IMG/VR virus record: IMGVR_UViG_3300015155_000017
DNA: 61,304 nt
From: a virus
Lineage: Duplodnaviria > Heunggongvirae > Uroviricota > Caudoviricetes
Strand: one strand, 5' to 3'
Part shown: positions 34,927 to 51,027 of the stretch, piece after piece
Numbering within the stretch: the first letter of the stretch is position 1
Layout: every line of letters begins with the position of its first letter
Position numbers and translations under genes: made by a program
The notes under the pieces: generated by a model
What the model saw: the letters and a program-made list of their open reading frames with translations, nothing else
What the model was told of the DNA's origin: nothing
The model's database searches: none

Positions 34927-34943
34927 TAATTTATTAGAGCAAT
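34927..34943 (-). promoter_or_regulatory. C1 operator (inverted)
   Basis: AATTTATTAGAGCAAT. Confidence 0.6.
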
Positions 34944-35069: not shown

Positions 35070-35103
35070 ATAACTTCGTATAGCATACATTATACGAAGT
35101 TAT
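35070..35103 (+). other. loxP site-specific recombination site
   Basis: Exact ATAACTTCGTATAGCATACATTATACGAAGTTAT. Confidence 0.98.
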
Positions 35104-35292
35104 CTTAAGGGTTATTGAACATGATCAATTTACCTGTAAATCCATACAGTTCAATACCTTATCAGGTCAAATAGTGATCACTTGATCATTTGATCAAGGT
35201 TGCGCTACGTAAAATCTGCGAAATGTTGGCAGTGTTAGTGCTCCAGATTTCGCGTAGCGCACTTAGCACCACCAATCAATCAGAGGTGAAAA

Positions 35293-35514
35293 ATGGGATA
35301 TTCAGCTGCTAAAGTGTCCACTCATATTGAGCTTGAGAAAAACCGTGGCTACTGGCGGGCAAAAGGGTTTGATCGTGATAGTTGTCAACTGTCATTATCG
35401 CGCGGTGAAGAGAAAATAGAACGCACGCGCGGTCGCTGGCGTTTCTATGACGAGAACCATAAACAGGTAAAGGCAGAGCCGATCCTGTACACTTTACTTA
35501 AAACCATTATCTGA
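35293..35514 (+). CDS. possible small protein in the cre leader (73 aa)
   Basis: GAGGTG SD before ATG; may only be the leader region carrying the cre promoters. Confidence 0.3.
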   Translation: MGYSAAKVSTHIELEKNRGYWRAKGFDRDSCQLSLSRGEEKIERTRGRWRFYDENHKQVKAEPILYTLLKTII

Positions 35515-35521
35515 GTGTTAA

Positions 35522-36553
35522 ATGTCCAATTTACTGACCGTACACCAAAATTTGCCTGCATTACCGGTCGATGCAACGAGTGATGAGGTTCGCAAGAACC
35601 TGATGGACATGTTCAGGGATCGCCAGGCGTTTTCTGAGCATACCTGGAAAATGCTTCTGTCCGTTTGCCGGTCGTGGGCGGCATGGTGCAAGTTGAATAA
35701 CCGGAAATGGTTTCCCGCAGAACCTGAAGATGTTCGCGATTATCTTCTATATCTTCAGGCGCGCGGTCTGGCAGTAAAAACTATCCAGCAACATTTGGGC
35801 CAGCTAAACATGCTTCATCGTCGGTCCGGGCTGCCACGACCAAGTGACAGTAATGCTGTTTCACTGGTCATGCGACGGATCCGAAAAGAAAACGTTGATG
35901 CCGGTGAACGTGCAAAACAGGCACTGGCGTTCGAACGCACTGATTTCGACCAGGTTCGTTCACTCATGGAAAATAGCGATCGCTGCCAGGATATACGTAA
36001 TCTGGCATTTCTGGGGATTGCTTATAACACCCTGTTACGTATAGCCGAAATTGCCAGGATCAGGGTTAAAGATATCTCACGTACAGACGGTGGGAGAATG
36101 TTAATCCATATTGGCAGAACGAAAACGCTGGTTAGTACCGCTGGTGTAGAGAAGGCACTTAGCCTGGGGGTAACTAAACTGGTCGAGCGATGGATTTCTG
36201 TCTCTGGTGTGGCTGATGATCCGAATAACTACTTGCTTTGCCGTGTCAGAAAAAATGGCGTAGCTGCGCCATCTGCCACCAGCCAGCTATCAACTCGCGC
36301 CCTGGAAGGGATTTTTGAAGCAACTCATCGATTGATTTACGGCGCTAAGGATGACTCTGGTCAGAGATACCTGGCCTGGTCTGGACACAGTGCCCGTGTC
36401 GGAGCCGCGCGAGATATGGCCCGCGCCGGAGTTTCAATACCGGAGATCATGCAAGCTGGTGGCTGGACCAACGTAAATATTGTCATGAACTATATCCGTA
36501 ACCTGGATAGTGAAACAGGGGCAATGGTGCGCCTGCTGGAAGATGGCGATTAG
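35522..36553 (+). CDS. cre: Cre tyrosine recombinase (343 aa)
   Basis: MSNLLTVHQNLPALPVDATSDEVRKNLMDMFRDRQAFSEHTWK... matches Cre. Confidence 0.98.
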   Translation: MSNLLTVHQNLPALPVDATSDEVRKNLMDMFRDRQAFSEHTWKMLLSVCRSWAAWCKLNNRKWFPAEPEDVRDYLLYLQARGLAVKTIQQHLGQLNMLHRRSGLPRPSDSNAVSLVMRRIRKENVDAGERAKQALAFERTDFDQVRSLMENSDRCQDIRNLAFLGIAYNTLLRIAEIARIRVKDISRTDGGRMLIHIGRTKTLVSTAGVEKALSLGVTKLVERWISVSGVADDPNNYLLCRVRKNGVAAPSATSQLSTRALEGIFEATHRLIYGAKDDSGQRYLAWSGHSARVGAARDMARAGVSIPEIMQAGGWTNVNIVMNYIRNLDSETGAMVRLLEDGD

Positions 36554-36570
36554 CCATTAACGTGTAAATG

Positions 36571-36587
36571 ATTGCTCTAATACTTTG
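36571..36587 (+). promoter_or_regulatory. C1 operator upstream of cra
   Basis: ATTGCTCTAATACTTTG. Confidence 0.55.
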
Positions 36588-36603
36588 ATATTTATGGCGA
36601 CAT

Positions 36604-36915
36604 ATGAGAAAGAATTTCAACATCGACGGAAAATATGTAGTGCTGTCAGTGAGCACTAATATTCAGTCGCCAGCCGTCATTGTCACTGTAAAGCTGAGCG
36701 ATAGAATGCCTGATATTGACTCAATATCCGTTGCGTTCCCTGTCAGAAGTATGCGTAGTGCTGAACATTTCGTGATGAATGCCACCGAGGAAGAAGCACG
36801 GCGCGGTTTTGCTAAAGTGATGTCTGAGTTTGGCGAATTTTTGGGGCACGTTGACAAAGCCCTCTCAATCAGTTCAGCAAGGTCCAAAGCATTAACAGCT
36901 TCCATGATGAAATAA
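36604..36915 (+). CDS. cra: cre-associated function protein (103 aa)
   Basis: Position directly after cre; symbol from P1 order. Confidence 0.6.
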   Translation: MRKNFNIDGKYVVLSVSTNIQSPAVIVTVKLSDRMPDIDSISVAFPVRSMRSAEHFVMNATEEEARRGFAKVMSEFGEFLGHVDKALSISSARSKALTASMMK

Positions 36916-36921
36916 AAAAAA

Positions 36922-36949
36922 GCCTGGCAAGGAGCCAGGCTGCACAAAA
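36922..36949. terminator. hairpin after cra (A-tract upstream, so intrinsic terminator for the minus strand)
   Basis: AAAAAAAA GCCTGGC AAGGA GCCAGGC. Confidence 0.45.
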
Positions 36950-37047
36950 GAGCGGGTTTGTATTCCGCATCCAATCAATCAAGAAGGAGTATAGCACACA
37001 GGTACTGAAGTGAAAAAATGTGATTCGCGATAAACAAAATATCTACC

Positions 37048-37077
37048 ATTGCTCTAATTGATTGCTATAATTGAGCC
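37048..37077 (+). promoter_or_regulatory. two overlapping C1 operators upstream of ref
   Basis: ATTGCTCTAATTGATTG and ATTGCTATAATTGAGCC. Confidence 0.6.
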
Positions 37078-37131
37078 GCAGTTTTTGTCAACTACGAAGA
37101 CGTTGCCATTACTTAACTCCTTGACATCATT

Positions 37132-37158
37132 GGCGGCCATCAGGCCGCCTTTTTTTTG
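37132..37158 (+). terminator. terminator/attenuator hairpin immediately upstream of ref
   Basis: GGCGGCC ATCA GGCCGCC TTTTTTTTG, 4 bp before the ref ATG. Confidence 0.6.
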
Positions 37159-37162
37159 CCAT

Positions 37163-37723
37163 ATGAAAACAATCGAACAAAAAATTGAACAGCACCGTAA
37201 GTGGCAGAAGGCAGCCAGAGAACGAGCGATCGCTCGGCAACGGGAGAAGTTGGCTGATCCGGCCTGGCGAGAATCGCAATATCAGAAAATGCGGAATACT
37301 ATCGACCGCCGTATCGCTAAACAGAAAGAGCGCCCACCAGCCAGCAAAACGCGGAAAAGCGCGGTAAAAATAAAATCTCGTGGCTTGAAGGGGCGAACAC
37401 CGACGGCAGAGGAACGGCACATAGCCAATGCTCTTGGCGCTCTCCCCTGCATTGCGTGCTATATGCATGGAGTAATATCTGAAGAGGTGTCTCTGCACCA
37501 TATCTCCGGTCGTACCGCGCCGGGTTGTCACAAAAAGCAATTGCCCCTTTGTAGATGGCACCACCAGCATGCAGCACCGGCTGAAGTAAGAGAAAAATAC
37601 CCCTGGCTGGTCCCTGTTCATGCCGATGGTGTGGTTGGAGGCAAGAAAGAATTCACCCTGCTGAACAAGTCAGAGATGGAGTTACTGGCTGACGCCTATG
37701 AGCTGGCAAACATCATGCACTAA
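37163..37723 (+). CDS. ref: Ref, HNH-type recombination enhancement endonuclease (186 aa)
   Basis: Cys/His HNH core CIACYMHG...HHISGR...CRWHH. Confidence 0.8.
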   Translation: MKTIEQKIEQHRKWQKAARERAIARQREKLADPAWRESQYQKMRNTIDRRIAKQKERPPASKTRKSAVKIKSRGLKGRTPTAEERHIANALGALPCIACYMHGVISEEVSLHHISGRTAPGCHKKQLPLCRWHHQHAAPAEVREKYPWLVPVHADGVVGGKKEFTLLNKSEMELLADAYELANIMH

Positions 37724-37759
37724 TAAATATATTATTTTTAATAATAAATGATTGACAAC

Positions 37760-37771
37760 TGACAAGTGACT
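37760..37771 (+). promoter_or_regulatory. candidate late promoter element TGACAAGTGACT upstream of mat
   Basis: Motif family member. Confidence 0.3.
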
Positions 37772-37872
37772 TCAGTCAGAATCATCACACGCCCGGTACG
37801 GATGGATCCCTTTTCAAATATTCCATGGACGGCACAGTCTGAGTACCGGGCGCTACCTTCAGTTGTATTGCT

Positions 37873-37900
37873 AAGCCGCCGCTGGTGGCTTTTCTTTTTT
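37873..37900 (+). terminator. terminator-like hairpin directly upstream of the mat RBS
   Basis: AAGCCGCC GCT GGTGGCTT then TTCTTTTTT. Confidence 0.5.
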
Positions 37901-37912
37901 GTAGGGGGCGCT

Positions 37913-38554
37913 ATGGATAAGAAAATATGCGTTGTTTCGATGAGCGTCGGCAAACCGGCATCAATGACTGCTGCATGGATCAATAACGAGCTGATAATGG
38001 CTGAGCGGACCAGCTACCCTGAACGCCGCCGCGATATGGAACTCCAGCTGCTGCGCGAATTGCGAGAAAAAGAGGAAAAGGGTTTTATCGTGCTGGTGGA
38101 AGAGGAAAACAGCTTTATTACTGGTCGAGTTGGCCAGCGTGTAAGGTTGCGCGATCCCTTCATGAACGGCAGGCCGGTACTAATTGAGGCAATGCAGATT
38201 TATAAGGAGCTGGAACGCCAGAAAGCAATCAAGTTACCGCGCAAGGAATCCGGCAAATACATCCTCCACCAAAGCATCTTCGATTCCGAACACGATAAAA
38301 AAGGCGATGAATTTTTCAACATCAACTGGAGCGAAATAACGACAGAGCATGTTCTGACGTTACTATGTTGCTTTGCGACGGAATACAACAACGTTGCCAG
38401 CGCCGACTACATCAGGGCAATGGCTTGTGAAGTGGATAGTCGTGATGACTCATCGCTGATAGCGTCATATATAAACATCATCAAGAAAACTCAAATTATG
38501 GGATGCGCTAGAGTTCCTCAAGGAATACTCACCGGAAAGAATAATATTCTATAA
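37913..38554 (+). CDS. mat: particle maturation protein (213 aa)
   Basis: AGGGGG SD before ATG 37913; P1 position after ref. Confidence 0.65.
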   Translation: MDKKICVVSMSVGKPASMTAAWINNELIMAERTSYPERRRDMELQLLRELREKEEKGFIVLVEEENSFITGRVGQRVRLRDPFMNGRPVLIEAMQIYKELERQKAIKLPRKESGKYILHQSIFDSEHDKKGDEFFNINWSEITTEHVLTLLCCFATEYNNVASADYIRAMACEVDSRDDSSLIASYINIIKKTQIMGCARVPQGILTGKNNIL

Positions 38555-38597
38555 CCTACGAAGGTTATTTGTTACTTTCTGCGTAAACCCACAACTC

Positions 38598-38619
38598 ACC
38601 TTCCTAAGTTAAGGAAGGT
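38598..38619. other. hairpin in the mat / 346-aa ORF convergent intergenic
   Basis: ACCTTCC TAAGTTAA GGAAGGT. Confidence 0.4.
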
Positions 38620-38651
38620 ATTTATCATGAAGTGTAGACATAAGCGTATTA

Positions 38652-39692
38652 TTACATGGGATTAACCACAACCTTTCCATATATATCAAGTTTTGATTGT
38701 AATACGTTGACGTGAGACAATTCTTTATTCGAACTAACTTTATCTAAAATTATATTTTTATCTTTTTCAGTCATGTTATACCCTAAGGTAATTTGCTTGA
38801 ATGCAGAAAAAGGAATTTTCTTTAAGTTAATTTCATGATAGTCATGAAAAACATTAGGATACTCATTTAATAGGCAATCATCAATCGATGGAGAGACAAT
38901 GCTTCCTATTTTTCTCTCGCAATCAGCCAATGGAAAAATAATTCTACTTTCATTTTCAGGAAGCCACTCTTCACCTTTTGTATAAAGAAGCCTATTAATA
39001 AAAAGCTCGCGAACTGAATCTCGATTTAAGATCCCATGCAATGTATTATCTTTATTCTTTATATCTATATTCCTCGATGGCGCAGGATAGCCATTAAATC
39101 GCACTGCGCCTTTATAATAGGTTACAGATGCTCTATCTTCTGGATTATAACTAACATCACACGGCCGATATATTTTGAAAAAATCGTGTGTTTCATCGAA
39201 AACTACAGCAAACCCCTTTCCTATCGATGCATAATGAGTCCACATGTGTAGATTGCAATCACTTTTTGATAGAGAGAACACACCAAGATGACAGCTTACG
39301 GCTTCTACTAAATAATCGTTAAGGCGCGTTACTATTTCTTGGAGTTTAGATTCATCATATGAATCCATTGAGGTAAAACCTTCATTGATTAACAAGTGTG
39401 GAAAATCCTCTCCGTATCGTTTCCCGCAAGGTTTTAAATAATACTCTAACTCTTGTATAGATGGGACATAAGATGGATCTCGTTGCATTTTCTTAAATTC
39501 ATTTCTAGCCCATGCGTAATCGGCTGGTGAAAATTTATTAAAAAATGGAAGAAGTCGCGACTCACTCGACGGATCATTAAGATACTTTGGTTGCGTTGCT
39601 CTAAAGAAACCATCCTCCAGACAAGATGTTCGAATGTGCATGCCCGGCCAAGGTTTTTCCATATAACTCTCGCCTATATATTTAACTAACAC
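38652..39692 (-). CDS. hypothetical protein of unknown function (346 aa from GTG; 336 aa from ATG at 39662); candidate defence/exclusion gene at the P1 res-mod position
   Basis: AT-rich ORF unlike the flanking P1 backbone; sits where P1 carries res-mod; contains GVFSLSKSDCNLHMWTHYASIGKGFAVVFD, which I tentatively recall as the DUF2971 signature. Confidence 0.7.
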   Translation of the reverse strand: MLVKYIGESYMEKPWPGMHIRTSCLEDGFFRATQPKYLNDPSSESRLLPFFNKFSPADYAWARNEFKKMQRDPSYVPSIQELEYYLKPCGKRYGEDFPHLLINEGFTSMDSYDESKLQEIVTRLNDYLVEAVSCHLGVFSLSKSDCNLHMWTHYASIGKGFAVVFDETHDFFKIYRPCDVSYNPEDRASVTYYKGAVRFNGYPAPSRNIDIKNKDNTLHGILNRDSVRELFINRLLYTKGEEWLPENESRIIFPLADCERKIGSIVSPSIDDCLLNEYPNVFHDYHEINLKKIPFSAFKQITLGYNMTEKDKNIILDKVSSNKELSHVNVLQSKLDIYGKVVVNPM

Positions 39693-39713
39693 TGTATATC
39701 GTTCCTGTTGTTT

Positions 39714-39734
39714 AAGCCCATATCATATGGGCTT
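39714..39734. other. near-perfect 21-bp palindrome between lxc and the 346-aa ORF
   Basis: AAGCCCATAT C ATATGGGCTT. Confidence 0.5.
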
Positions 39735-39744
39735 TAAATGATTA

Positions 39745-39993
39745 TTAATCAGCATTCAGAAGCAATGCGTTATCTATGATGATCTGCTCCCATTCTTCGA
39801 ATGCCCGGTCACGGACGCCCTGGGGAACGCTGTTAGTTTTGAAATCGACGACCGTCCGCCATTTTCCGTCCGGACGGTACATGCGCAGAGCTTTACTTCC
39901 CCCTTCCCTGCGCACCTCAACGTTATGCTTATCAGCAAACTCTTGTAATGCTCGTAGCGTCCCATGCTTTACTGTGTAGTATCGCTTTTTCAA
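39745..39993 (-). CDS. lxc: Lxc, C1 co-repressor (82 aa)
   Basis: Size and position downstream of ulx/darB as in P1. Confidence 0.7.
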   Translation of the reverse strand: MKKRYYTVKHGTLRALQEFADKHNVEVRREGGSKALRMYRPDGKWRTVVDFKTNSVPQGVRDRAFEEWEQIIIDNALLLNAD

Positions 39994-40430
39994 GTTTTCT
40001 CTCCAGCCTGTGCTAAGGCTTCAACTTCCAAATCGTAAGACTCAAACTCATAGTCCTGGTCGTCAACCTCTTCAGGCACTGGCAGTAAATGCCAGGCTGA
40101 GTATATCTGACCATTATCAAAACGCTCCTGGCTGTAGAGCGTCGCAGCTATGAGCGTCAGCGCCGGGCGGTCATAACGGTAAATTTTGCGAACGTCACGG
40201 TCAACGAGACGACCGAAATTACCATAACCGCGCTCCAGTAATAATTTTTTAATTTCCGGCCAGTATGGACCATAGCTGCGGTACAGGCGGGGATTTTTCA
40301 GTAATCGCCCGCGTAGCCCTGACAGGAAGAAATCAACGTATTCGTCTTCTGTCTTTCCTAACAACGCTGTACGGAGTACCGCCTCAAGATATGTTTTATT
40401 CGGTTTTATTGTATCAGATAGTGTGGCCAT
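39990..40430 (-). CDS. ulx: Ulx (146 aa)
   Basis: Overlapping-stop operon with darB and lxc. Confidence 0.65.
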   Translation of the reverse strand: MATLSDTIKPNKTYLEAVLRTALLGKTEDEYVDFFLSGLRGRLLKNPRLYRSYGPYWPEIKKLLLERGYGNFGRLVDRDVRKIYRYDRPALTLIAATLYSQERFDNGQIYSAWHLLPVPEEVDDQDYEFESYDLEVEALAQAGEKT

Positions 40431-40463
40431 ATTATGCGACGCCCGGCGAACCGGGCGCTCCTG

Positions 40464-43400
40464 TTATGCGTATTGTTGGATGACGGCCAGAACGTCCGCC
40501 ACGTTGTGTTTTGTCTCGATAATCCACCAGTTACCCGGGAAATCGCTGTTCTTCGCCTTCGCTGGCAGCCAGCGAGCGCCGAATTTCGCCTTGATTGCGT
40601 CTTTGGCACGGAAAAGAACGCCTTTCATGCCTGAGGCTTCCTGAAGCCCAAATACCTCGCCAGCGGCGAATTTTGGTGCGTACATCATCTTCAGGTCGGC
40701 GGTGGATACGCGATAATTCAGACCAAGAGACTGAGCTATGCTGGTGGCATCACCCTGTATTGATGATAACTCTTCTTGTTTCTCGTTTCTGGCGGCAATT
40801 TCTTCCTCCGTGATGTTGCCAAGGGCCAGGTTTATCCGATCAGCGTCGGCCTGTTTCTCTTCATCGGTGCGCCCGGCAAGAACCGTGTTAATTCTCTGCA
40901 ATATCTCCACATGATTCTTGCGCATGCTGAGCAATTCCGGCGTAACCTCGTTAAGATCCACCAGCCCAAGGATGGCAAGGTCGGAAAACATTGATACCAG
41001 GTTGTAGGTCATGCGATAGCTGAGTTGGCCATAGGCTGATGGCAACTGCACCGAATCCATTTTATAGGCATCCATAAATTTAGAGCCGTCGTTTACGACA
41101 TCCGCAATTGCAGGTGTGATTTTCCCTGTGGTGGCGGCCTCCCTGATTGCTGTTACCCACGATTGAGTCAGTGCGGCGACTGCATGATTCAGATTGGCTT
41201 CCCGTTCTGCTGCGATGCGCGCGCTTGCTGCGTCCATTGCCTGCTTGATATCGGCTTTATTGCTGTAAATGCCAATAGTGCCAAACTGTGCTGTGGTGAT
41301 CTCATAATCTGACGCCCGGAACTCATGGGTACCGAAAATGGCATTGGTGACCTCAAGTTCAGAATCCCCGTTACGAGTAGCCCCCTGGCTTGTTTTCTCC
41401 GGCATTTTTGCGATCGCATCCACTATTTTCTCCTGAATTGCTTCAGGGGATAGCGTATCTCCGTATGACGCGATTACATCGCCATAATTGGAGCCAAACA
41501 ATTCAACCAGGAATGTTTCTGCCGAACGGATCTGGCGGTTATTCCCTTCCGACATCATACCAAGCACCCATTTTGCAATTGACGACTTCAGCGCGCCGTC
41601 ACGGCGATCCGGGTAAACCGCATGCTTCAGTGGGGCCGTATAGGTACCAACAAAATCAATGCTATAGCCTGACTCTGTAGTCTGAACGCCGTATGAGTCA
41701 GTGATTTTGATCATGCCGCGCTGCTGGAAACGGTAGAAATCGTCACAGGAAATGATGTCGTTAATCCCGGCGATGGAGACGCCACCACTGATTTTCTGCA
41801 TAACAGCATCTTCATCGGGAGTTACATCCACCTGTTTATCCAGCGTCTTCACATCCCAGTTACCCGATTTGGTGCCTTTGAAGGTAAAGATGATCTCCAC
41901 GTCTGCGCGCTGGCTGTCGAAGTCCAGCGACTTAATGCGAACGATATCACCGGCACAATCGTAGTATTGGCCTACACGCCATGAGCGATCGCCGATAACA
42001 AGGAACTTATTCGCATGGTTAACCAGATCAGGATCAACATCCAGAATGCCTTTATTTATTGCATCCTCCACCAGCGGGCGCAGGCGTTTGATATCCGTCG
42101 CGGCCTTCTGAGTACGGTTCAATAATTTCTCATAGCGGGAGATGGCTTGAGAGATATTAGCCTTGCGCTGAATGGCGCTTTTCAACGACGCGCGATACTG
42201 TGCTAACAACGTACGGTCTGTGTGATGGACGCTACCCCAGCGGGCCTTCCAGTCTGCGTTATCAGCTGCTTTGGCCATTACCGTCTGTTTGAATTTAGCT
42301 ACCTCGGCGGTGGTCTTTTCAAGTTCCGCTTTGCTTCGCTCTAATTCAGCGGTAAGTACCTCCACATCCTCGCCAGCTGCGTGCTGCGCCTTGATGTAGT
42401 TCTGAAGGTCGATAGTAGCCTGTTCTTTCTGGCGAGCGCGTTGCGCGGCTTTCGCCTTATCCATTTGAACCTGCATCATTGCCAGACGTTCGCCATCATC
42501 CTTAGCGGTATACATCTGCATTTCGATCATATCGTTGGCGTCGGCGTTCTCCATTTCTGACTTATCTGAACGGAGGATATCGGAGATCCAGCCTGCTTTA
42601 CGCTTCAGCGTCTTCAGTCGGTATTCATCGAAAGAACCTTTGCCGCAGTAGTAGTGAACGCGTACGCTTGCACGGTTGGAGCCAACTCGGGCACCGCGAC
42701 CGTTACGCTGTGCGATACTGGCTGGTGTCCATGGCAACGTCAGATGATGGATGTCAGTCGTTCCTCGATGCAGGTTGATACCCACCTCTGCCTTTTTGTT
42801 GCAGATGATGATCGGGGTCCGGCCCTCCTGGAAGTCGGCAGCAATCTTTTCCAGACCGCCCAACGACATTTCATTTTGCTGCGCGATATAGGCGTCATAC
42901 AGAGCCATTTGCTCGTTGTATTTCGCTATCTGTGCATCTGTTGGTTCATCCGGTAACTCTTTCGGCGGTTTAACCGCTTTCAGTTTCTTACCGGTTTTAC
43001 CTGCCTCGGCAACCGTCTGAGCATTCAGGATCCCCACCTTTGAAGGTTCAAGGTTAAGAGCATTGCAGATAATGCGCTTGAGCTTCTGGTGCTGCGTTTT
43101 TTCGTCCGTGAAGATGATTTGCTTACCTTCCGGGAAAAACTCCTTCAGCGTGGCGATCAGCTTCGCGTATTTGGGTGTAACGGGGTGAGTTACGGTCTGT
43201 TCGTCAATGCCAAACCTGGCCAGGCGCTTATTCACTTCCTGCTCGAACGCTTCCGGAACCTGCAACTGAATAAACTCGCCCTTATCTATCAGGGAGTATT
43301 GCGATTGCTGCGTGATTGAATCATCACTGTCGTCGTCTTCGCTGGTGGCTTGTTTAGGCAAACTGTCCGCCAGCTGCTGCACCGCATCGGCGTACTCCGG

Positions 43401-46400
43401 CAGGAAACGATAGGTGATCCGGCGATAGTACAGGTCCATGTCAGTACATACGCGGTCCATATCCCTGATTATTGAGAAGATCGGACGGGCTTTCTCGTGC
43501 TCAATCACGCCGTCTTCATTGACCGAGGTCGTTACGCCATTGTTGGCTTTGGCCGCCGCTTCCGCCTGCTGACGCAATTCTTCATACGCCGCCAGTTGTT
43601 CTTCAGTAAGTGGTGCATCCTGCTGGTGTTCGTCCAGCTCCGGGATCTCCACGGTATCCTTAACGTCTTCCGCCGTTTTAAGCGTTACCCAGCGATGGAA
43701 TATACCGCGCAGCGCATCAAGGTTTTCAAAGCCCACCAGCGCCATTTTTTCTTCAACTTCACCGCTGATTTTCTGTACCGTTTCCAGCCTGGTCTTGCCG
43801 AAGAATTTAACGAAGTCATCAGGACCGTAGATCCCCATGTTCTGCCAGTATTCCTTCGGCAGAACATGAGAAAGCATGTTGTATGCATCGATCGGGGTGT
43901 TAACGACTGGCGTTGCAGTCAGGAGAACCGGCCCGCGCCCGCCATTCTTTTTCATCAGGTACGCGTTTTTAATTGCCATATCTCGCGCCGATTGCGCCAC
44001 CGCGCTGGTGGGCAGATAGGCCAGTTGTGACGCTTCGCGACCATTTTTATAGCTATTGCGGTAGTTGTGACCTTCGTCAGCGATCACACTATCGAAGCCC
44101 ATATCCTCAAAGTACGGATACTTCTCTGCTTTTTCGGTGCCGGTATCTGAATACTCCGACAATACCCGGCGACGCGCGGCCTCTTTGCGGTGGGAGTCGG
44201 AGTCCATTGCGCTGGCTACGCGTCCGGCGGCAACGAAGTCATAAAGCATATCCTGTGCATGCTCATCTACGGTGTCATCACGTAGCGGAATGCGGGCGTA
44301 TTGTTCTTTGGTAAACACGACTGCACGGTAATTTGAGTGCGGGATCGCGTTCATCCGCGCCGTGATAGTGGCTTCATCTGCCAGTTTTAGGGCATCGCGC
44401 ATAACTGGAGTGCCATCAGTACCAAGAACAGGTTTACCGTTCTCATCGAGCACCGGCACCTGGCGAATCTGATCGCCATCCATCAGCACATCAAGACCGA
44501 CGAACAGGTAGTTACTGAATGCCTCTTCACTCAGGAATTCTTTTGCTTCGTAATACCAGTTTTCCAGCACTGATTTAGGCACTACATACGCAGTACGGGT
44601 GGAGCGACCGTTCTCATAGTTGAACGCCTCAAGCGCCAGCGCGGTCGTAGTTTTACCCAGCCCGGTGCCGAAGCCCAGGATGCCGCGCCCATCTTCGGAC
44701 AGTCGGCGCACTTCGCTATTCTGGTAATCAAATGGCTGGCGCTTACCGCTTAATCCCTTCAACCCAAGCGGATCGCCAGAGTGTTCATACGGGATATTGC
44801 TATTGAACACATCGTTGTATTTGGCAACCAGTTCATCGTAGCGATCGTGCGTCTTGATCCACTTATTGAACTGGTCCTCAAGCAGTGCCATCTGCTCGCG
44901 GTAGCCGTTCGCCGTCGCGCTATCTTTGCCACCGATACGCGCACCATTGAGATACTTTTCCAGCTGTGCCGGGAACCCGGTCGCGTTTTCACCTGATTTA
45001 CGGTCCCACTCGTAGCGGATCTCGCCTGTTTCTTTATCCTTGCGCTGGACGACACCGTATCGGTGCCCGACGAACAGACCATCACCACCGTGATAGGTGT
45101 CAGAAACCATTTCGTCGCCTTCCAGCTGCACTGACTGCACATAGCGAAGATCCGGATAGCCGTTTTCCTGCAAAAATTCCAGAATGACGGAACGGTCGAA
45201 CCAACGGCTATTGAGCTTAAAGCGGATATTCTCTGCTGGCGTCTTGATGCGCTTCTCTTCGATCGCTGCCAGCTGATTAAGGACGTTGTTCTTTACTGGA
45301 CCGTCGGGGAGTGTGGCAAGGAATTCCTGTTTTGGTGCCACTATCTCGTTAATGTCTCCGCTGGTGGCGCGGGCGAACGGAACAATCCCGCCATACGGTG
45401 AAACCGCAATGCCAGGGGTGCTGGCCAATAAATTAAGCAACTCGTCATCACTGGCTGGCAGTTCGCCGGTAAACGCAAGGCGGAAATCATCGAGCTGGAT
45501 TGGATCGCGAGTGAGATCACTGTAGAGATAACGCAGGGTGTCCTGATAGCTGGTGGAGTCATAACTGGCGCTGGAATCATGCGTAACCAGTTTTCCTGTC
45601 AGCTCGTCAGAAATAGTGCCATCCAGCTTAATTGCACCACGGAAAGCAAACCAGGCGCGCGCACCGCTCCCCGATAATTTCGCTATCGGACCGCGACCGG
45701 GGTTACCAAAACGGTCAATCTCTGCCTGCAAACGGGATACCAGAGAAAGGCGCTGCTGTTCGATTTGTTCAGCACTATGCCCGGCGGCCTTCATGTCCTG
45801 ATATTCAATTAACATCCGGCCAATCATCGCCCCGCGATACAAGCGTTCACGGTATTTTTCAGGCTGGCTGTTAATCCAGTCCACCAGCTGCACCATATCG
45901 TCGCTGATTGATGTGGTGTATTTATCGCGGACATTTGCCATCTGGGTAAATGTCATACCGAGACGGCCTTCTGTTGTAGTCAGGTTACGCTGAAGAGCCT
46001 CCCAGCTATCCGCGCCATAACTGGCAGCATCAATTTTAAGTTCCTTCCCGGCATCAGCTTCAATCCAGCGACCACCAGCATATTTTTGCCATACGCCATT
46101 AATCAGGCGCATTTCCCCTTCACCAACAACGTCTGCGGTCGGTGACGGTTCAGCCATATCGAGCAAAGACCAGTCGATACGGCTTTCGAAACGATGAATC
46201 AGCTTCGCTTTAAGAGCCTGGTTATCAATCTGACCGTCGGCACGAACCTCAATACGCCCCTGGAAGCCCTTTTCCTGGGTGCCATGAACAAACCGGCGGC
46301 CATCCTTTTCAAACCACTTGCCAGAAATAAACGTTGGCCAAAGCACATTTGCCGATTCAAGAGTGCTTTCATCCACCAGGGGGATTTTCTCAGCCATCTC

Positions 46401-47231
46401 TGCCGGATGTTTGCGCATCAGCACCACATCTACGACCGTACTGGTCCCGTTTGCGTCAAAAGTACCGGTAGGCAAGCGGTGGGCACCAAGAAATTCAGCT
46501 TTCCGTGATAGGCGCAGGCGTAACCGCTTCATGTTTGAACCTGAAACAATGGACGGCGGCACAATCACGCACATGAATCCGCCTGGCTTTATCTTGTCCA
46601 GCATGCGGAGCATGAAGTAAGAACCCATGTCCGTTTCTTCTGCGTAAGGCTTATCGATGTTGCGTGTGTTATCACGACCGCCGAACGGAACGTTACCCAC
46701 AACATGGTCGAATGAATCGTTAGGTGTGCTTACAGCCAGCTGTTCGAACGGGGAAATCTGTACGCTGTCTTCCGGGTGTAACAACTGGTTTATACGACCG
46801 GAAACACTGCTGATCTCAGTCGCGGTCATCACCGTACCAACCGGTTTTGTCTCATTAAAAACGCCGGTTCCCGCCGATGGTTCCAGAGTGTTACCTACGT
46901 CCGCGCCGTAGAGCTTCATGATCTCCCAGACACCTTCAGCGATCGGCTTTGGTGTGTAATATTCGGAGACGGACCCGCCAATGCCGCCTTCACCGGTGTA
47001 CCCAGCCAGGATCTGGCGCTGTTCATCTGTCAGTGTCGCGCCGTCCACCAGTGAATTAAGCAAATCTATCGCCTTCTGATTCGCCTCCCGGCGCAGTCGG
47101 TCATAGCTTTTGCCTTCCACCTTTTCCACGCCGTATTTAATCGGCGCTCGGTGAGATGTTATTGCCCTAATGTATTTCAATATTTCGCTGACACTTGAAC
47201 AGCGAAACACCCCCATAGATAGCTTGTTCAT
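40464..47231 (-). CDS. darB: DarB antirestriction protein, methyltransferase-helicase fusion (2255 aa)
   Basis: Length matches P1 DarB; Walker A GFGTGLGKTT, DEGH box, N-terminal MTase-like region. Confidence 0.9.
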   Translation of the reverse strand: MNKLSMGVFRCSSVSEILKYIRAITSHRAPIKYGVEKVEGKSYDRLRREANQKAIDLLNSLVDGATLTDEQRQILAGYTGEGGIGGSVSEYYTPKPIAEGVWEIMKLYGADVGNTLEPSAGTGVFNETKPVGTVMTATEISSVSGRINQLLHPEDSVQISPFEQLAVSTPNDSFDHVVGNVPFGGRDNTRNIDKPYAEETDMGSYFMLRMLDKIKPGGFMCVIVPPSIVSGSNMKRLRLRLSRKAEFLGAHRLPTGTFDANGTSTVVDVVLMRKHPAEMAEKIPLVDESTLESANVLWPTFISGKWFEKDGRRFVHGTQEKGFQGRIEVRADGQIDNQALKAKLIHRFESRIDWSLLDMAEPSPTADVVGEGEMRLINGVWQKYAGGRWIEADAGKELKIDAASYGADSWEALQRNLTTTEGRLGMTFTQMANVRDKYTTSISDDMVQLVDWINSQPEKYRERLYRGAMIGRMLIEYQDMKAAGHSAEQIEQQRLSLVSRLQAEIDRFGNPGRGPIAKLSGSGARAWFAFRGAIKLDGTISDELTGKLVTHDSSASYDSTSYQDTLRYLYSDLTRDPIQLDDFRLAFTGELPASDDELLNLLASTPGIAVSPYGGIVPFARATSGDINEIVAPKQEFLATLPDGPVKNNVLNQLAAIEEKRIKTPAENIRFKLNSRWFDRSVILEFLQENGYPDLRYVQSVQLEGDEMVSDTYHGGDGLFVGHRYGVVQRKDKETGEIRYEWDRKSGENATGFPAQLEKYLNGARIGGKDSATANGYREQMALLEDQFNKWIKTHDRYDELVAKYNDVFNSNIPYEHSGDPLGLKGLSGKRQPFDYQNSEVRRLSEDGRGILGFGTGLGKTTTALALEAFNYENGRSTRTAYVVPKSVLENWYYEAKEFLSEEAFSNYLFVGLDVLMDGDQIRQVPVLDENGKPVLGTDGTPVMRDALKLADEATITARMNAIPHSNYRAVVFTKEQYARIPLRDDTVDEHAQDMLYDFVAAGRVASAMDSDSHRKEAARRRVLSEYSDTGTEKAEKYPYFEDMGFDSVIADEGHNYRNSYKNGREASQLAYLPTSAVAQSARDMAIKNAYLMKKNGGRGPVLLTATPVVNTPIDAYNMLSHVLPKEYWQNMGIYGPDDFVKFFGKTRLETVQKISGEVEEKMALVGFENLDALRGIFHRWVTLKTAEDVKDTVEIPELDEHQQDAPLTEEQLAAYEELRQQAEAAAKANNGVTTSVNEDGVIEHEKARPIFSIIRDMDRVCTDMDLYYRRITYRFLPEYADAVQQLADSLPKQATSEDDDSDDSITQQSQYSLIDKGEFIQLQVPEAFEQEVNKRLARFGIDEQTVTHPVTPKYAKLIATLKEFFPEGKQIIFTDEKTQHQKLKRIICNALNLEPSKVGILNAQTVAEAGKTGKKLKAVKPPKELPDEPTDAQIAKYNEQMALYDAYIAQQNEMSLGGLEKIAADFQEGRTPIIICNKKAEVGINLHRGTTDIHHLTLPWTPASIAQRNGRGARVGSNRASVRVHYYCGKGSFDEYRLKTLKRKAGWISDILRSDKSEMENADANDMIEMQMYTAKDDGERLAMMQVQMDKAKAAQRARQKEQATIDLQNYIKAQHAAGEDVEVLTAELERSKAELEKTTAEVAKFKQTVMAKAADNADWKARWGSVHHTDRTLLAQYRASLKSAIQRKANISQAISRYEKLLNRTQKAATDIKRLRPLVEDAINKGILDVDPDLVNHANKFLVIGDRSWRVGQYYDCAGDIVRIKSLDFDSQRADVEIIFTFKGTKSGNWDVKTLDKQVDVTPDEDAVMQKISGGVSIAGINDIISCDDFYRFQQRGMIKITDSYGVQTTESGYSIDFVGTYTAPLKHAVYPDRRDGALKSSIAKWVLGMMSEGNNRQIRSAETFLVELFGSNYGDVIASYGDTLSPEAIQEKIVDAIAKMPEKTSQGATRNGDSELEVTNAIFGTHEFRASDYEITTAQFGTIGIYSNKADIKQAMDAASARIAAEREANLNHAVAALTQSWVTAIREAATTGKITPAIADVVNDGSKFMDAYKMDSVQLPSAYGQLSYRMTYNLVSMFSDLAILGLVDLNEVTPELLSMRKNHVEILQRINTVLAGRTDEEKQADADRINLALGNITEEEIAARNEKQEELSSIQGDATSIAQSLGLNYRVSTADLKMMYAPKFAAGEVFGLQEASGMKGVLFRAKDAIKAKFGARWLPAKAKNSDFPGNWWIIETKHNVADVLAVIQQYA

Positions 47232-51010: not shown

Positions 51011-51027
51011 ATTGCTCTAATTAATTT
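51011..51027 (+). promoter_or_regulatory. C1 operator upstream of ssb
   Basis: ATTGCTCTAATTAATTT. Confidence 0.6.

What the first reader, a model, noticed from the sequence alone, without database searches (positions are those of the whole stretch)
38555..39744. res-mod slot between mat and lxc holds a single AT-rich 346-aa ORF of unknown function
Everything from cre to darB is colinear with P1 except this interval. Where P1 has the ~5 kb type III res-mod genes (between mat and lxc), this window has ~1.1 kb with one minus-strand ORF (38652..39692). It is conspicuously AT-rich, has no C1 operator or late-promoter motif, and is bracketed by a hairpin (38598..38619) and a 21-bp palindrome (39714..39734). 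It sits at the tail of the lxc-ulx-darB antirestriction operon. Its central motif GVFSLSKSDCNLHMWTHYASIGKGFAVVFD matches what I recall as the DUF2971 signature. I expect it to be a defence or superinfection-exclusion gene, and the best candidate for an undescribed system here.
Basis: partly seen in the sequence, partly recalled or inferred. Interest (0 to 1): 0.88.

Follow-up and report, generated by a model that had tools for sequence, protein, structure and literature searches.

The report
P1 hotspot gene: DUF2971 ADP-ribosyltransferase-like defence candidate
In this P1-like phage-plasmid the restriction-modification genes are replaced by one intact gene of the DUF2971 family, an ADP-ribosyltransferase-like protein that is most likely a stand-alone anti-phage defence gene, but both the gene family and the swap site are already described, so it is a reasonable test candidate and not a new kind of system.

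Summary
Window 38434-39744 replaces P1's res-mod::IS5 segment and carries one intact minus-strand ORF (38652-39692, 346 aa, GTG start). It is AT-rich and flanked by a hairpin and a palindrome, with no C1 operator or late-promoter box in front of it.

No partner gene is conserved across 20 loci. Homologues sit in other mobile-element cargo sites (P2-like prophage, P4-like island, prophage end, conjugative plasmid). In sister P1-like plasmids the same mat-lxc slot holds EcoP1I, CapRelSJ46, SIR2 and PDC-S34 genes.

My best explanation is a self-contained abortive-infection-type ADP-ribosyltransferase, probably acting on nucleic acid.

It is not undescribed. The slot is the published RD-1 hotspot. 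A DUF2971 protein (Aristaios) is a validated lactococcal defence. This exact cassette is in at least 88 plasmids and 63 of 5,426 complete E. coli genomes. I rate it a new member of a known kind, of moderate interest.

The parts
38434..39744 (.). Variable cassette that replaces P1 res-mod::IS5 (P1 3348-9749). It includes a diverged 3' end of mat, the DUF2971 gene and both flanking stem-loops.
   Evidence: blastn against P1 NC_005856. The same 1190-bp interval occurs at 98.8-99.2% identity in 88 plasmids and in 63 of 5,426 complete E. coli genomes.
38652..39692 (-). DUF2971 / PDC-S31 gene, 346 aa with a GTG start, predicted to have an ADP-ribosyltransferase fold.
39600..39602 (-). Codon of R31, the candidate motif I of the ADP-ribosyltransferase core (F-R-x-T-Q-P...L-N-D).
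   Evidence: Invariant in A1 and in relatives at 25-31% identity. It lies on predicted strand 29-31.
39231..39281 (-). Codons 138-154 (VFSLSKSDCNLHMWTHY): the S140-L-S142 stretch on predicted strand 136-142 plus the MW..Y154 helix, the candidate motif II.
   Evidence: S140, M150, W151 and Y154 are invariant in A1. L141 and Y154 are invariant, and M150 and W151 nearly so, in distant relatives.
38943..38957 (-). Codons 246-250 (E-N-E-S-R): the E-x-E motif at the start of predicted strand 248-254, the candidate catalytic motif III.
   Evidence: E246, E248 and R250 are invariant in A1. E248 and R250 are invariant, and E246 nearly so, in distant relatives.
39693..39744 (-). 52-nt leader between the lxc stop and the GTG start. 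It holds the palindrome 39711-39737 and an AGGA Shine-Dalgarno-like motif (39703-39706), with 10 nt between the motif and the GTG.
   Evidence: Sequence, inverted repeat and fold. The consensus scan finds no sigma-70 promoter on this strand.
38598..38619 (.). Stem-loop between the convergent mat and DUF2971 genes. It is terminator-like for mat on the + strand and also folds on the - strand.
37913..38554 (+). mat, the left flank. Its last ~120 nt are a diverged allele that travels with the cassette.
39745..39993 (-). lxc, the right flank and conserved P1 backbone. Homology to P1 resumes exactly at its stop codon.

Best explanation
The gene is the cargo of the known P1 mat-lxc (res-mod, 'RD-1') accessory hotspot. 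It encodes a stand-alone, partner-less enzyme of the ADP-ribosyltransferase (ART) superfamily (DUF2971 / PADLOC PDC-S31, the family of the lactococcal Aristaios system).

The most likely mode of action is abortive-infection-type immunity for the P1 lysogen. The protein is made in the lysogen, either by read-through from the lxc-ulx-darB transcripts or from a weak promoter at the lxc end. It is kept inactive by its own helical inserts or C-terminal region. On infection by another phage it is switched on and uses NAD+ to ADP-ribosylate a target, most probably nucleic acid (DNA or RNA) given its nearest structural neighbours. This blocks phage transcription or replication.

What is shown here: the replacement, gene integrity and purifying selection, family membership, the ART fold, conserved catalytic-type residues, the absence of a conserved partner, and the defence-type neighbourhood. 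What is inferred: the defence phenotype, autoinhibition, the trigger, NAD+ use and the target.
For: Replacement of res-mod. Intact ORF under purifying selection.

Pfam DUF2971 above threshold for all 33 aligned members, and PADLOC PDC-S31 for all 33.

R31, Y154, E248 and R250 are invariant, and E246 nearly invariant, down to 25% identity.

The same slot in sister P1-like elements holds EcoP1I, CapRelSJ46 (identical to PDB 7ZTB; validated in PMC9712102), a SIR2/ThsA-like gene matching PDC-S25, and a PDC-S34 gene.

Homologues at 40-50% identity are single-gene inserts: in a P2-like prophage between gpV and gpS, next to Ogr/Psu with UvrD and RT genes, at a prophage end, beside an AbiLi/HEC-04-like ATPase, and on a conjugative plasmid.

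No flanking family is shared beyond close relatives in 20 loci, and the shared neighbours are housekeeping genes (guaA, nrdAB).

Literature: DUF2971 is a predicted ART close to DarT and AbiGi (PMC12522546). Aristaios is a 316-aa single-gene DUF2971 system with an abortive-infection-like phenotype that impairs phage transcription.
Against: There is no experimental datum for this protein or for any enterobacterial relative.

PDC-S31 is only a candidate class. The PADLOC matches are partial: the best model covers residues 118-183.

I could not measure sequence similarity to Aristaios. My catalytic residue assignment rests on sequence and predicted secondary structure, not on a superposition. PMC12522546 describes DUF2971 as a modified H-Y-E family, whereas this clade looks R-S/Y-ExE.

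No promoter was detected in front of the gene, so expression in the lysogen is unproven.

A toxic ART without an antitoxin needs an autoinhibition mechanism for which I have no direct evidence. The C-terminal region has no recognisable fold.
Confidence: 0.6

Rival explanations
1. It is a phage-offensive or counter-defence ADP-ribosyltransferase: a host-takeover or anti-defence enzyme used by P1 itself (compare T4 Alt/ModA/ModB), co-expressed with the Dar antirestriction genes.
For: The gene is co-oriented with lxc-ulx-darB and lies only 52 nt downstream of lxc, with no detected promoter of its own. It has an ART fold.
Against: There is no late-promoter box or C1 operator in front of it. Cargo in this slot occurs on either strand and includes bona fide defences. 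Homologues occur outside phages: a chromosomal islet between nrdA and nrdB, a site next to guaA, and a conjugative plasmid. PADLOC lists the family among its candidate defence classes, and Aristaios is a host-protective system.
Confidence: 0.12
2. It is a selfish toxin used for plasmid maintenance or competition between mobile elements, taking over the addiction role of res-mod rather than providing anti-phage immunity.
For: It replaces res-mod, which contributes to P1 plasmid stability (PMC6906374). It has a toxin-like fold. It is almost always on plasmids in E. coli (64 of 65 places).
Against: No antitoxin gene, RNA family or repeat array is present in the cassette, and no partner is conserved in 20 loci. 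Without these a post-segregational killing circuit cannot work. Many homologues are chromosomal single-gene inserts.
Confidence: 0.1
3. It is a secreted or host-directed virulence effector, as proposed for a minority of DUF2971 proteins in Legionella and other pathogens.
Against: The gene has a mobile-element cargo context in non-pathogenic and environmental bacteria such as Psychrobacter, Shewanella and Oceanobacter. No secretion system is linked in any locus. The nearest folds are the nucleic-acid-acting ARTs.
Confidence: 0.05
4. It is an inert passenger or a catalytically dead ART-like protein with no current function.
For: There are no functional data, no detected promoter, and a foreign AT-rich composition.
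Against: All seven copies compared are full-length, with pN/pS 0.1-0.2 for the most diverged pairs. The family is full-length at 36-53% identity across genera. Catalytic-type residues are invariant.
Confidence: 0.05

Closest known systems
Aristaios (Lactococcus plasmid pUCCL641_199; Grafakou et al. 2024, PMC11381338)
   Different: The host is Gram-positive. Pairwise similarity could not be measured because the sequence was not retrievable. The window protein belongs to a small ~346-aa gammaproteobacterial clade: only 39 of 8,718 superfamily clusters score E<=1e-30. It has not been tested experimentally.
PADLOC PDC-S31 (single-gene phage-defence candidate)
   Same: All 33 clade members match four PDC-S31 HMMs, with best E 2e-22. 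The architecture is single-gene.
   Different: The matches are partial: the best model covers residues 118-183 and another covers 115-332. PDC-S31 is a prediction, not a characterised system.
DarT of DarTG (ssDNA thymidine ADP-ribosyltransferase toxin)
   Different: There is no DarG macrodomain antitoxin or any other conserved partner. There is no Pfam DarT hit. The protein has two large helical inserts and an extra C-terminal region of about 90 aa.
CapRelSJ46 (fused toxin-antitoxin, tRNA pyrophosphokinase)
   Same: It occupies exactly the same mat-lxc slot in sister P1-like elements. It is a single polypeptide without a separate antitoxin, and it is the model for self-inhibited, directly triggered abortive-infection proteins (PMC9712102).
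   Different: The fold and chemistry are unrelated (RelA/SpoT against ART). It lies on the opposite strand in the slot.
EcoP1I type III restriction-modification (P1 res/mod)
   Same: Same locus, and the same presumed role of protecting the lysogen from incoming DNA or phage.
   Different: It is a two-gene, ~5-kb DNA-cleaving system. There is no homology.
Tpt1/KptA RNA 2'-phosphotransferase
   Different: There is no Pfam match to the Tpt1 family. The window protein carries an invariant E-x-E motif typical of transferases of the R-S-E type (from my own knowledge of ART classes, not tested structurally).

Membership tests
Pfam DUF2971 (PF11185) | Score above the curated gathering threshold (22 bits) | tested here: met
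   28.2 bits, E 4.9e-6, residues 150-251 covering the whole 89-position profile. All 33 clade members match.
PADLOC PDC-S31 | Match to the PDC-S31 HMMs as a single-gene locus | tested here: met
   PDLC04994 E 7.8e-17 and PDLC04990 E 7e-15 (residues 115-332). All 33 members match. No conserved neighbour. Coverage of the best model is only partial.
ADP-ribosyltransferase superfamily | ART split beta-sheet fold | tested here: met
ADP-ribosyltransferase superfamily | Conserved catalytic triad (H/R on strand 1; Y or S-x-S on strand 2; E or E-x-E on strand 5) | tested here: inconclusive
   R31, S140-x-S142/Y154 and E246-x-E248 sit on the expected predicted strands and are invariant or nearly so. No residue-level superposition on a solved ART was possible.
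ADP-ribosyltransferase superfamily | NAD+-dependent ADP-ribosyl transfer | not testable with these tools
   This needs biochemistry.
DarTG toxin-antitoxin | Adjacent DarG (macrodomain) antitoxin | tested here: not met
   The cassette holds a single ORF. No partner family is conserved in 20 homologue loci.
DarTG toxin-antitoxin | Sequence membership in the DarT family | tested here: not met
   Pfam scans of 33 members at E<=5 return only DUF2971 as a consistent hit. Profile search of PDB sequences finds no DarT. The similarity is structural only.
Aristaios | Single DUF2971 protein sufficient for an abortive-infection-like phage resistance phenotype | not testable with these tools
   The domain and the single-gene architecture are shared. 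The phenotype needs experiment.
Aristaios | Significant pairwise similarity to pUCCL641_199 | not tested
   The sequence is not in the searchable collections: tblastn of plasmids gave no Lactococcus hit, and cluster look-up of ~316-aa relatives gave none.
P1 RD-1 (res-mod) variable hotspot cargo | Lies between conserved mat and lxc and is replaced by unrelated genes in sister elements | tested here: met
   Described in PMC6906374.
Tpt1/KptA | Sequence membership in the family | tested here: not met

The most novel reading that the evidence does not exclude
This clade is an antitoxin-free ADP-ribosyltransferase that is held off by its own helical inserts or C-terminal region. It is switched on directly by a phage component (CapRel-like logic) and then ADP-ribosylates DNA or RNA. 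That would be a third nucleic-acid ADP-ribosylation immunity mechanism beside DarTG and CmdTAC, and the first mechanism assigned to the very large DUF2971 superfamily (8,718 clusters at 50% identity).
Probability: 0.3. Interest if true: 0.62.

Novelty: new member of a known kind. Interest (0 to 1): 0.4.

Why it matters
DUF2971 is a very large family (8,718 clusters at 50% identity with E<=1e-3), and no biochemical mechanism has been demonstrated for it in the literature I could search. Its one validated member is in Lactococcus.

This P1-borne copy sits in E. coli's best-known phage-plasmid, in the same slot as CapRelSJ46 and EcoP1I. It is found in about 1% of complete E. coli genomes. It is therefore a convenient, genetically tractable entry point for three questions: what the family's target and trigger are, how a toxic ADP-ribosyltransferase is controlled without an antitoxin, and how the P1 mat-lxc slot works as a defence-gene exchange site.

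It does not change current concepts. It extends them to one more family member and documents the hotspot's repertoire.

Tried and rejected
- NCBIfam: no hit.
- Profile search of PDB sequences: no hit at E<=10.
- Foldseek against the PDB: nothing significant. The best hit was E 0.7, a ~53-residue stretch of tRNA-splicing endonuclease.
- AFDB50 fold search: the library was unavailable.
- RNA antitoxin or other RNA element in the cassette: Rfam found none at E<=1. The only tandem repeat is a trivial 7-mer.
- Sigma-70 promoter upstream of the ORF: none in the consensus scan. The equivalent of P1's annotated P2mod promoter straddles the junction (the -10 position reads TAATAA here), which is suggestive only.
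- Conserved partner gene: rejected. The recurring neighbours are guaA and nrdA/nrdB, housekeeping genes in related genera. A PIN_12 gene lies 43-52 bp downstream in only two loci.
- Retrieving the Aristaios sequence for direct comparison failed.
- The text of the recent P2/P4 hotspot paper does not mention this family, and 'PDC-S31' occurs in no searchable paper.

Full report
**1. Observation.** The window is a P1-like phage-plasmid. ORF listing gives cre (35522-36553), c8, ref and mat (ending at 38554) on the + strand, and lxc (39745-39993), ulx (39990-40430) and darB (40464-47231) on the - strand. Between mat and lxc there is a single long ORF, 38652-39692 on the - strand, of 346 aa. GC falls to 0.29-0.39 over the ORF, against about 0.47-0.55 on both sides.

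blastn against the P1 reference (NC_005856, fetched) aligns window 35087-38433 to P1 1-3347 and window 39745-41000 to P1 9750-11005. Nothing aligns in between. The replaced segment is therefore 38434-39744 (1311 bp) against P1 3348-9749, which holds res, mod and IS5. The left break lies about 120 nt inside the 3' end of mat, so the cassette carries its own diverged mat C-terminus. The right break is exactly at the lxc stop codon.

The flanking stem-loops are real. The one at 38598-38619 has an 8-bp stem, is terminator-like on the + strand, and lies between the convergent mat and the ORF. The second is a palindrome with 13-nt arms at 39711-39737, between the lxc stop and the ORF start. None of the window's 15 C1 operator matches falls in the cassette. 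The only exact copies of the late-promoter -22 box are at 37764 (LPmat) and 60215.

**2. The gene.** The near-invariant N-terminus MLVKY in 32 homologues shows that translation starts at the GTG at 39692. An AGGA motif lies upstream, with 10 nt between it and the GTG. PGAP instead calls the ATG at codon 11, and the phage record MH422554 does not annotate the gene at all.

Seven copies from different plasmids are all full-length. pN/pS is 0.1-0.2 for the most diverged pairs. The two window-specific substitutions (Y123R, D280N) fall in variable columns. The gene is therefore intact and under purifying selection.

**3. Family.**
- Pfam: DUF2971 (PF11185), 28.2 bits against a threshold of 22, covering residues 150-251.
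- PADLOC: four PDC-S31 models, best E 7.8e-17.
- PHROG 1762, unknown function. NCBIfam gives nothing.

The word-indexed protein search finds a 99%-identical cluster of 839 sequences. The next tier is at only 36-53% identity: proteins of ~346-350 aa in Klebsiella, Serratia, Salmonella, Enterobacter, Vibrio, Shewanella, Oceanobacter and others. A full HMMER scan with that clade's profile finds 8,718 clusters at E<=1e-3 but only 39 at E<=1e-30. This is a small clade inside a very large superfamily whose typical length is 260-320 aa. All 33 aligned clade members hit both PF11185 and PDC-S31.

- CteC, TreX, scabin and heat-labile enterotoxin

The scores are modest. Foldseek against the PDB finds nothing significant, and a sequence profile finds no PDB relative, so the relationship is distant.

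The predicted topology has two large helical inserts (about 56-135 and 214-246). This agrees with the published description of DUF2971 as an ART with inserts between strands 1/2 and 4/5 (PMC12522546).

Residues invariant in the clade, most of them still invariant in relatives at 25-31% identity, sit where ART motifs are expected:
- R31, on strand 29-31
- S140-L141-S142, on strand 136-142, followed by M150-W151-x-x-Y154
- K239...W243..E246-x-E248-x-R250, at the start of strand 248-254

I read this as an R / S(Y) / ExE arrangement. That reading is inferred from sequence and predicted secondary structure, not from a superposition, and the published paper calls the family a modified H-Y-E type. 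The last ~90 residues are less conserved. Modelled alone, they match no known fold.

**5. Context and partner test.** The cassette contains no second credible gene, no Rfam RNA and no repeat array. Homologues occupy a range of sites:
- Salmonella: a lone, opposite-strand insert between gpV and gpS of a P2-like prophage.
- Raoultella: beside Ogr/Delta and Psu (P4-like), with SymE, UvrD-helicase and reverse-transcriptase genes nearby.
- Serratia: the end of a prophage next to smpB.
- Klebsiella: an islet next to an AAA_15/21 ATPase that matches PADLOC HEC-04/AbiLi/AriA-type models.
- Vibrio: a conjugative plasmid.

I clustered all ORFs within 3 kb of the gene in 20 loci from different genera. 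No family was shared by more than 3-4 loci, and the shared families are guaA and nrdA/nrdB in related genera. In those cases the gene is a single-gene insertion next to housekeeping genes. A PIN_12 gene follows at 43-52 bp in two loci only. The protein therefore works without a dedicated partner.

**6. The slot.** Of 708 PLSDB records that match the mat/lxc flanks, 85 carry this cassette across the whole flank query, and 88 match the 1190-bp interval alone. An evenly spaced sample of the rest shows other cargo in the same position:
- RelA/SpoT genes
- SIR2-family genes
- YaaC-family genes plus a small ORF
- EAL fragment plus HTH genes
- GNAT and PIN genes
- short or empty intervals
- larger inserts such as res-mod

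The SJ46 RelA/SpoT gene is identical to PDB 7ZTB, that is CapRelSJ46, an experimentally established anti-phage fused toxin-antitoxin. It also matches PADLOC PDC-S33. The SIR2 gene matches PDC-S25/ThsA-type models, and JL22 gp7 matches PDC-S34. Cargo lies on either strand, and each brings its own hairpin next to the lxc stop.

The slot is thus a defence-gene exchange site. [quoted passage not shown] The cassette is in 63 of 5,426 complete E. coli genomes, and 64 of its 65 places there are on plasmids.

**7. Mechanism.** The best-supported reading is a self-contained, abortive-infection-type ADP-ribosyltransferase that protects the P1 lysogen. Its closest structural relatives act on nucleic acids (Tpt1/KptA on RNA phosphates, DarT on ssDNA thymidine, scabin on guanine). 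The one validated family member, Aristaios, is a single-gene abortive-infection-like system that impairs phage transcription. I therefore favour a nucleic-acid target, at about 40% given that it is an active ART.

Because there is no antitoxin, activity must be gated within the protein and released by an infection cue, as in CapRel. This step is inference.

Expression is also unproven. No sigma-70 consensus promoter lies upstream, and only 52 nt with a hairpin that lacks a U-tract separate the gene from lxc. Read-through from the lxc/ulx promoters annotated in P1 is the likeliest source.

The rivals are less well supported, for the reasons given under each: a phage-offensive ART, an addiction toxin, a secreted effector, and an inert passenger.

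**8. Comparison and novelty.** By sequence the protein is a member of Pfam DUF2971 and of PADLOC's PDC-S31 candidate class. By fold it belongs to the ART superfamily. It is not a DarTG member (no DarG, no DarT-family sequence match) and not a Tpt1-family member. Whether it is close to Aristaios in sequence could not be tested.

The hotspot, the family's ART assignment and a validated defence member are all published, and the gene is routinely annotated. The finding is therefore a new (untested, enterobacterial, P1-borne) member of a known kind. Its interest is moderate: the mechanism of this very large family is still unknown, and this copy is an easy one to test.

Noticed in passing
window 38434-38554: The last ~120 nt of mat are a diverged allele that travels with the cassette. 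P1, SJ46 and JL22 share a different mat 3' end. Cargo exchange therefore seems to happen by recombination inside mat, not at its stop codon.
   Followed up: partly
window 39662 vs 39692: PGAP annotates this gene from the ATG at codon 11 (336 aa) in plasmid records. The near-invariant MLVKY N-terminus of homologues indicates the upstream GTG (346 aa). The phage record MH422554 leaves the ORF unannotated.
   Followed up: yes
L004:2584-2622, L005:2347-2409, window 39711-39737: Each different cargo (CapRel in SJ46, gp7 in JL22, DUF2971 here) brings its own unrelated GC-containing hairpin immediately next to the lxc stop codon. P1 with res-mod has the P2mod promoter there instead. These may be terminators or insulators that come with the cassettes.
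   Followed up: partly
plasmid hits H141-H177, e.g. LT904880.1 29822-30205: Non-mobilizable plasmids of about 106-128 kb (most 106-115 kb) from Klebsiella, Enterobacter, Citrobacter and Salmonella carry a distant DUF2971 gene (24-26% identity). By size and hosts they resemble SSU5/pHCM2-type phage-plasmids (my recollection). A second phage-plasmid lineage may therefore carry this family.
   Followed up: no
L033:2602-7906; L040:5001-7698: In Psychrobacter the homologue is inserted between nrdA and nrdB. In Acinetobacter it sits next to guaA, whose GATase domain also hits Pfam Peptidase_C26. This may explain the 'DUF2971-peptidase C26 operon' association discussed in PMC12522546 as mere adjacency to guaA.
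   Followed up: partly
L015:8093-9100 and L029:6093-7097: A PIN_12-domain protein of 334-335 aa lies 43-52 bp downstream on the same strand in a Vibrio plasmid and a Shewanella contig. It could be a two-gene variant or simply a neighbouring defence gene.
   Followed up: partly
L004:1463-2584 (SJ46): PADLOC-DB v2.0.0 model PDC-S33 matches CapRelSJ46 at E 7e-87. That 'candidate' class therefore corresponds to a system that has since been validated. The P1 slot cargos hit PDC-S25, S31, S33 and S34.
   Followed up: yes
L025:946-2495; L026:908-2553; L027:1055-1663: Other cargos of the same slot have no PADLOC match: a YaaC-family protein plus a 169-aa ORF, an EAL fragment plus a 240-aa HTH protein, and a 202-aa GNAT acetyltransferase. 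They may be further untested defence candidates.
   Followed up: partly
window, 15 sites (e.g. 4232-4248, 19862-19878, 34927-34943, 51011-51027): There are fifteen matches to the P1 C1 operator consensus within 3 mismatches, against 0.28 expected by chance. This is consistent with an intact P1 immunity network in this element.
   Followed up: no
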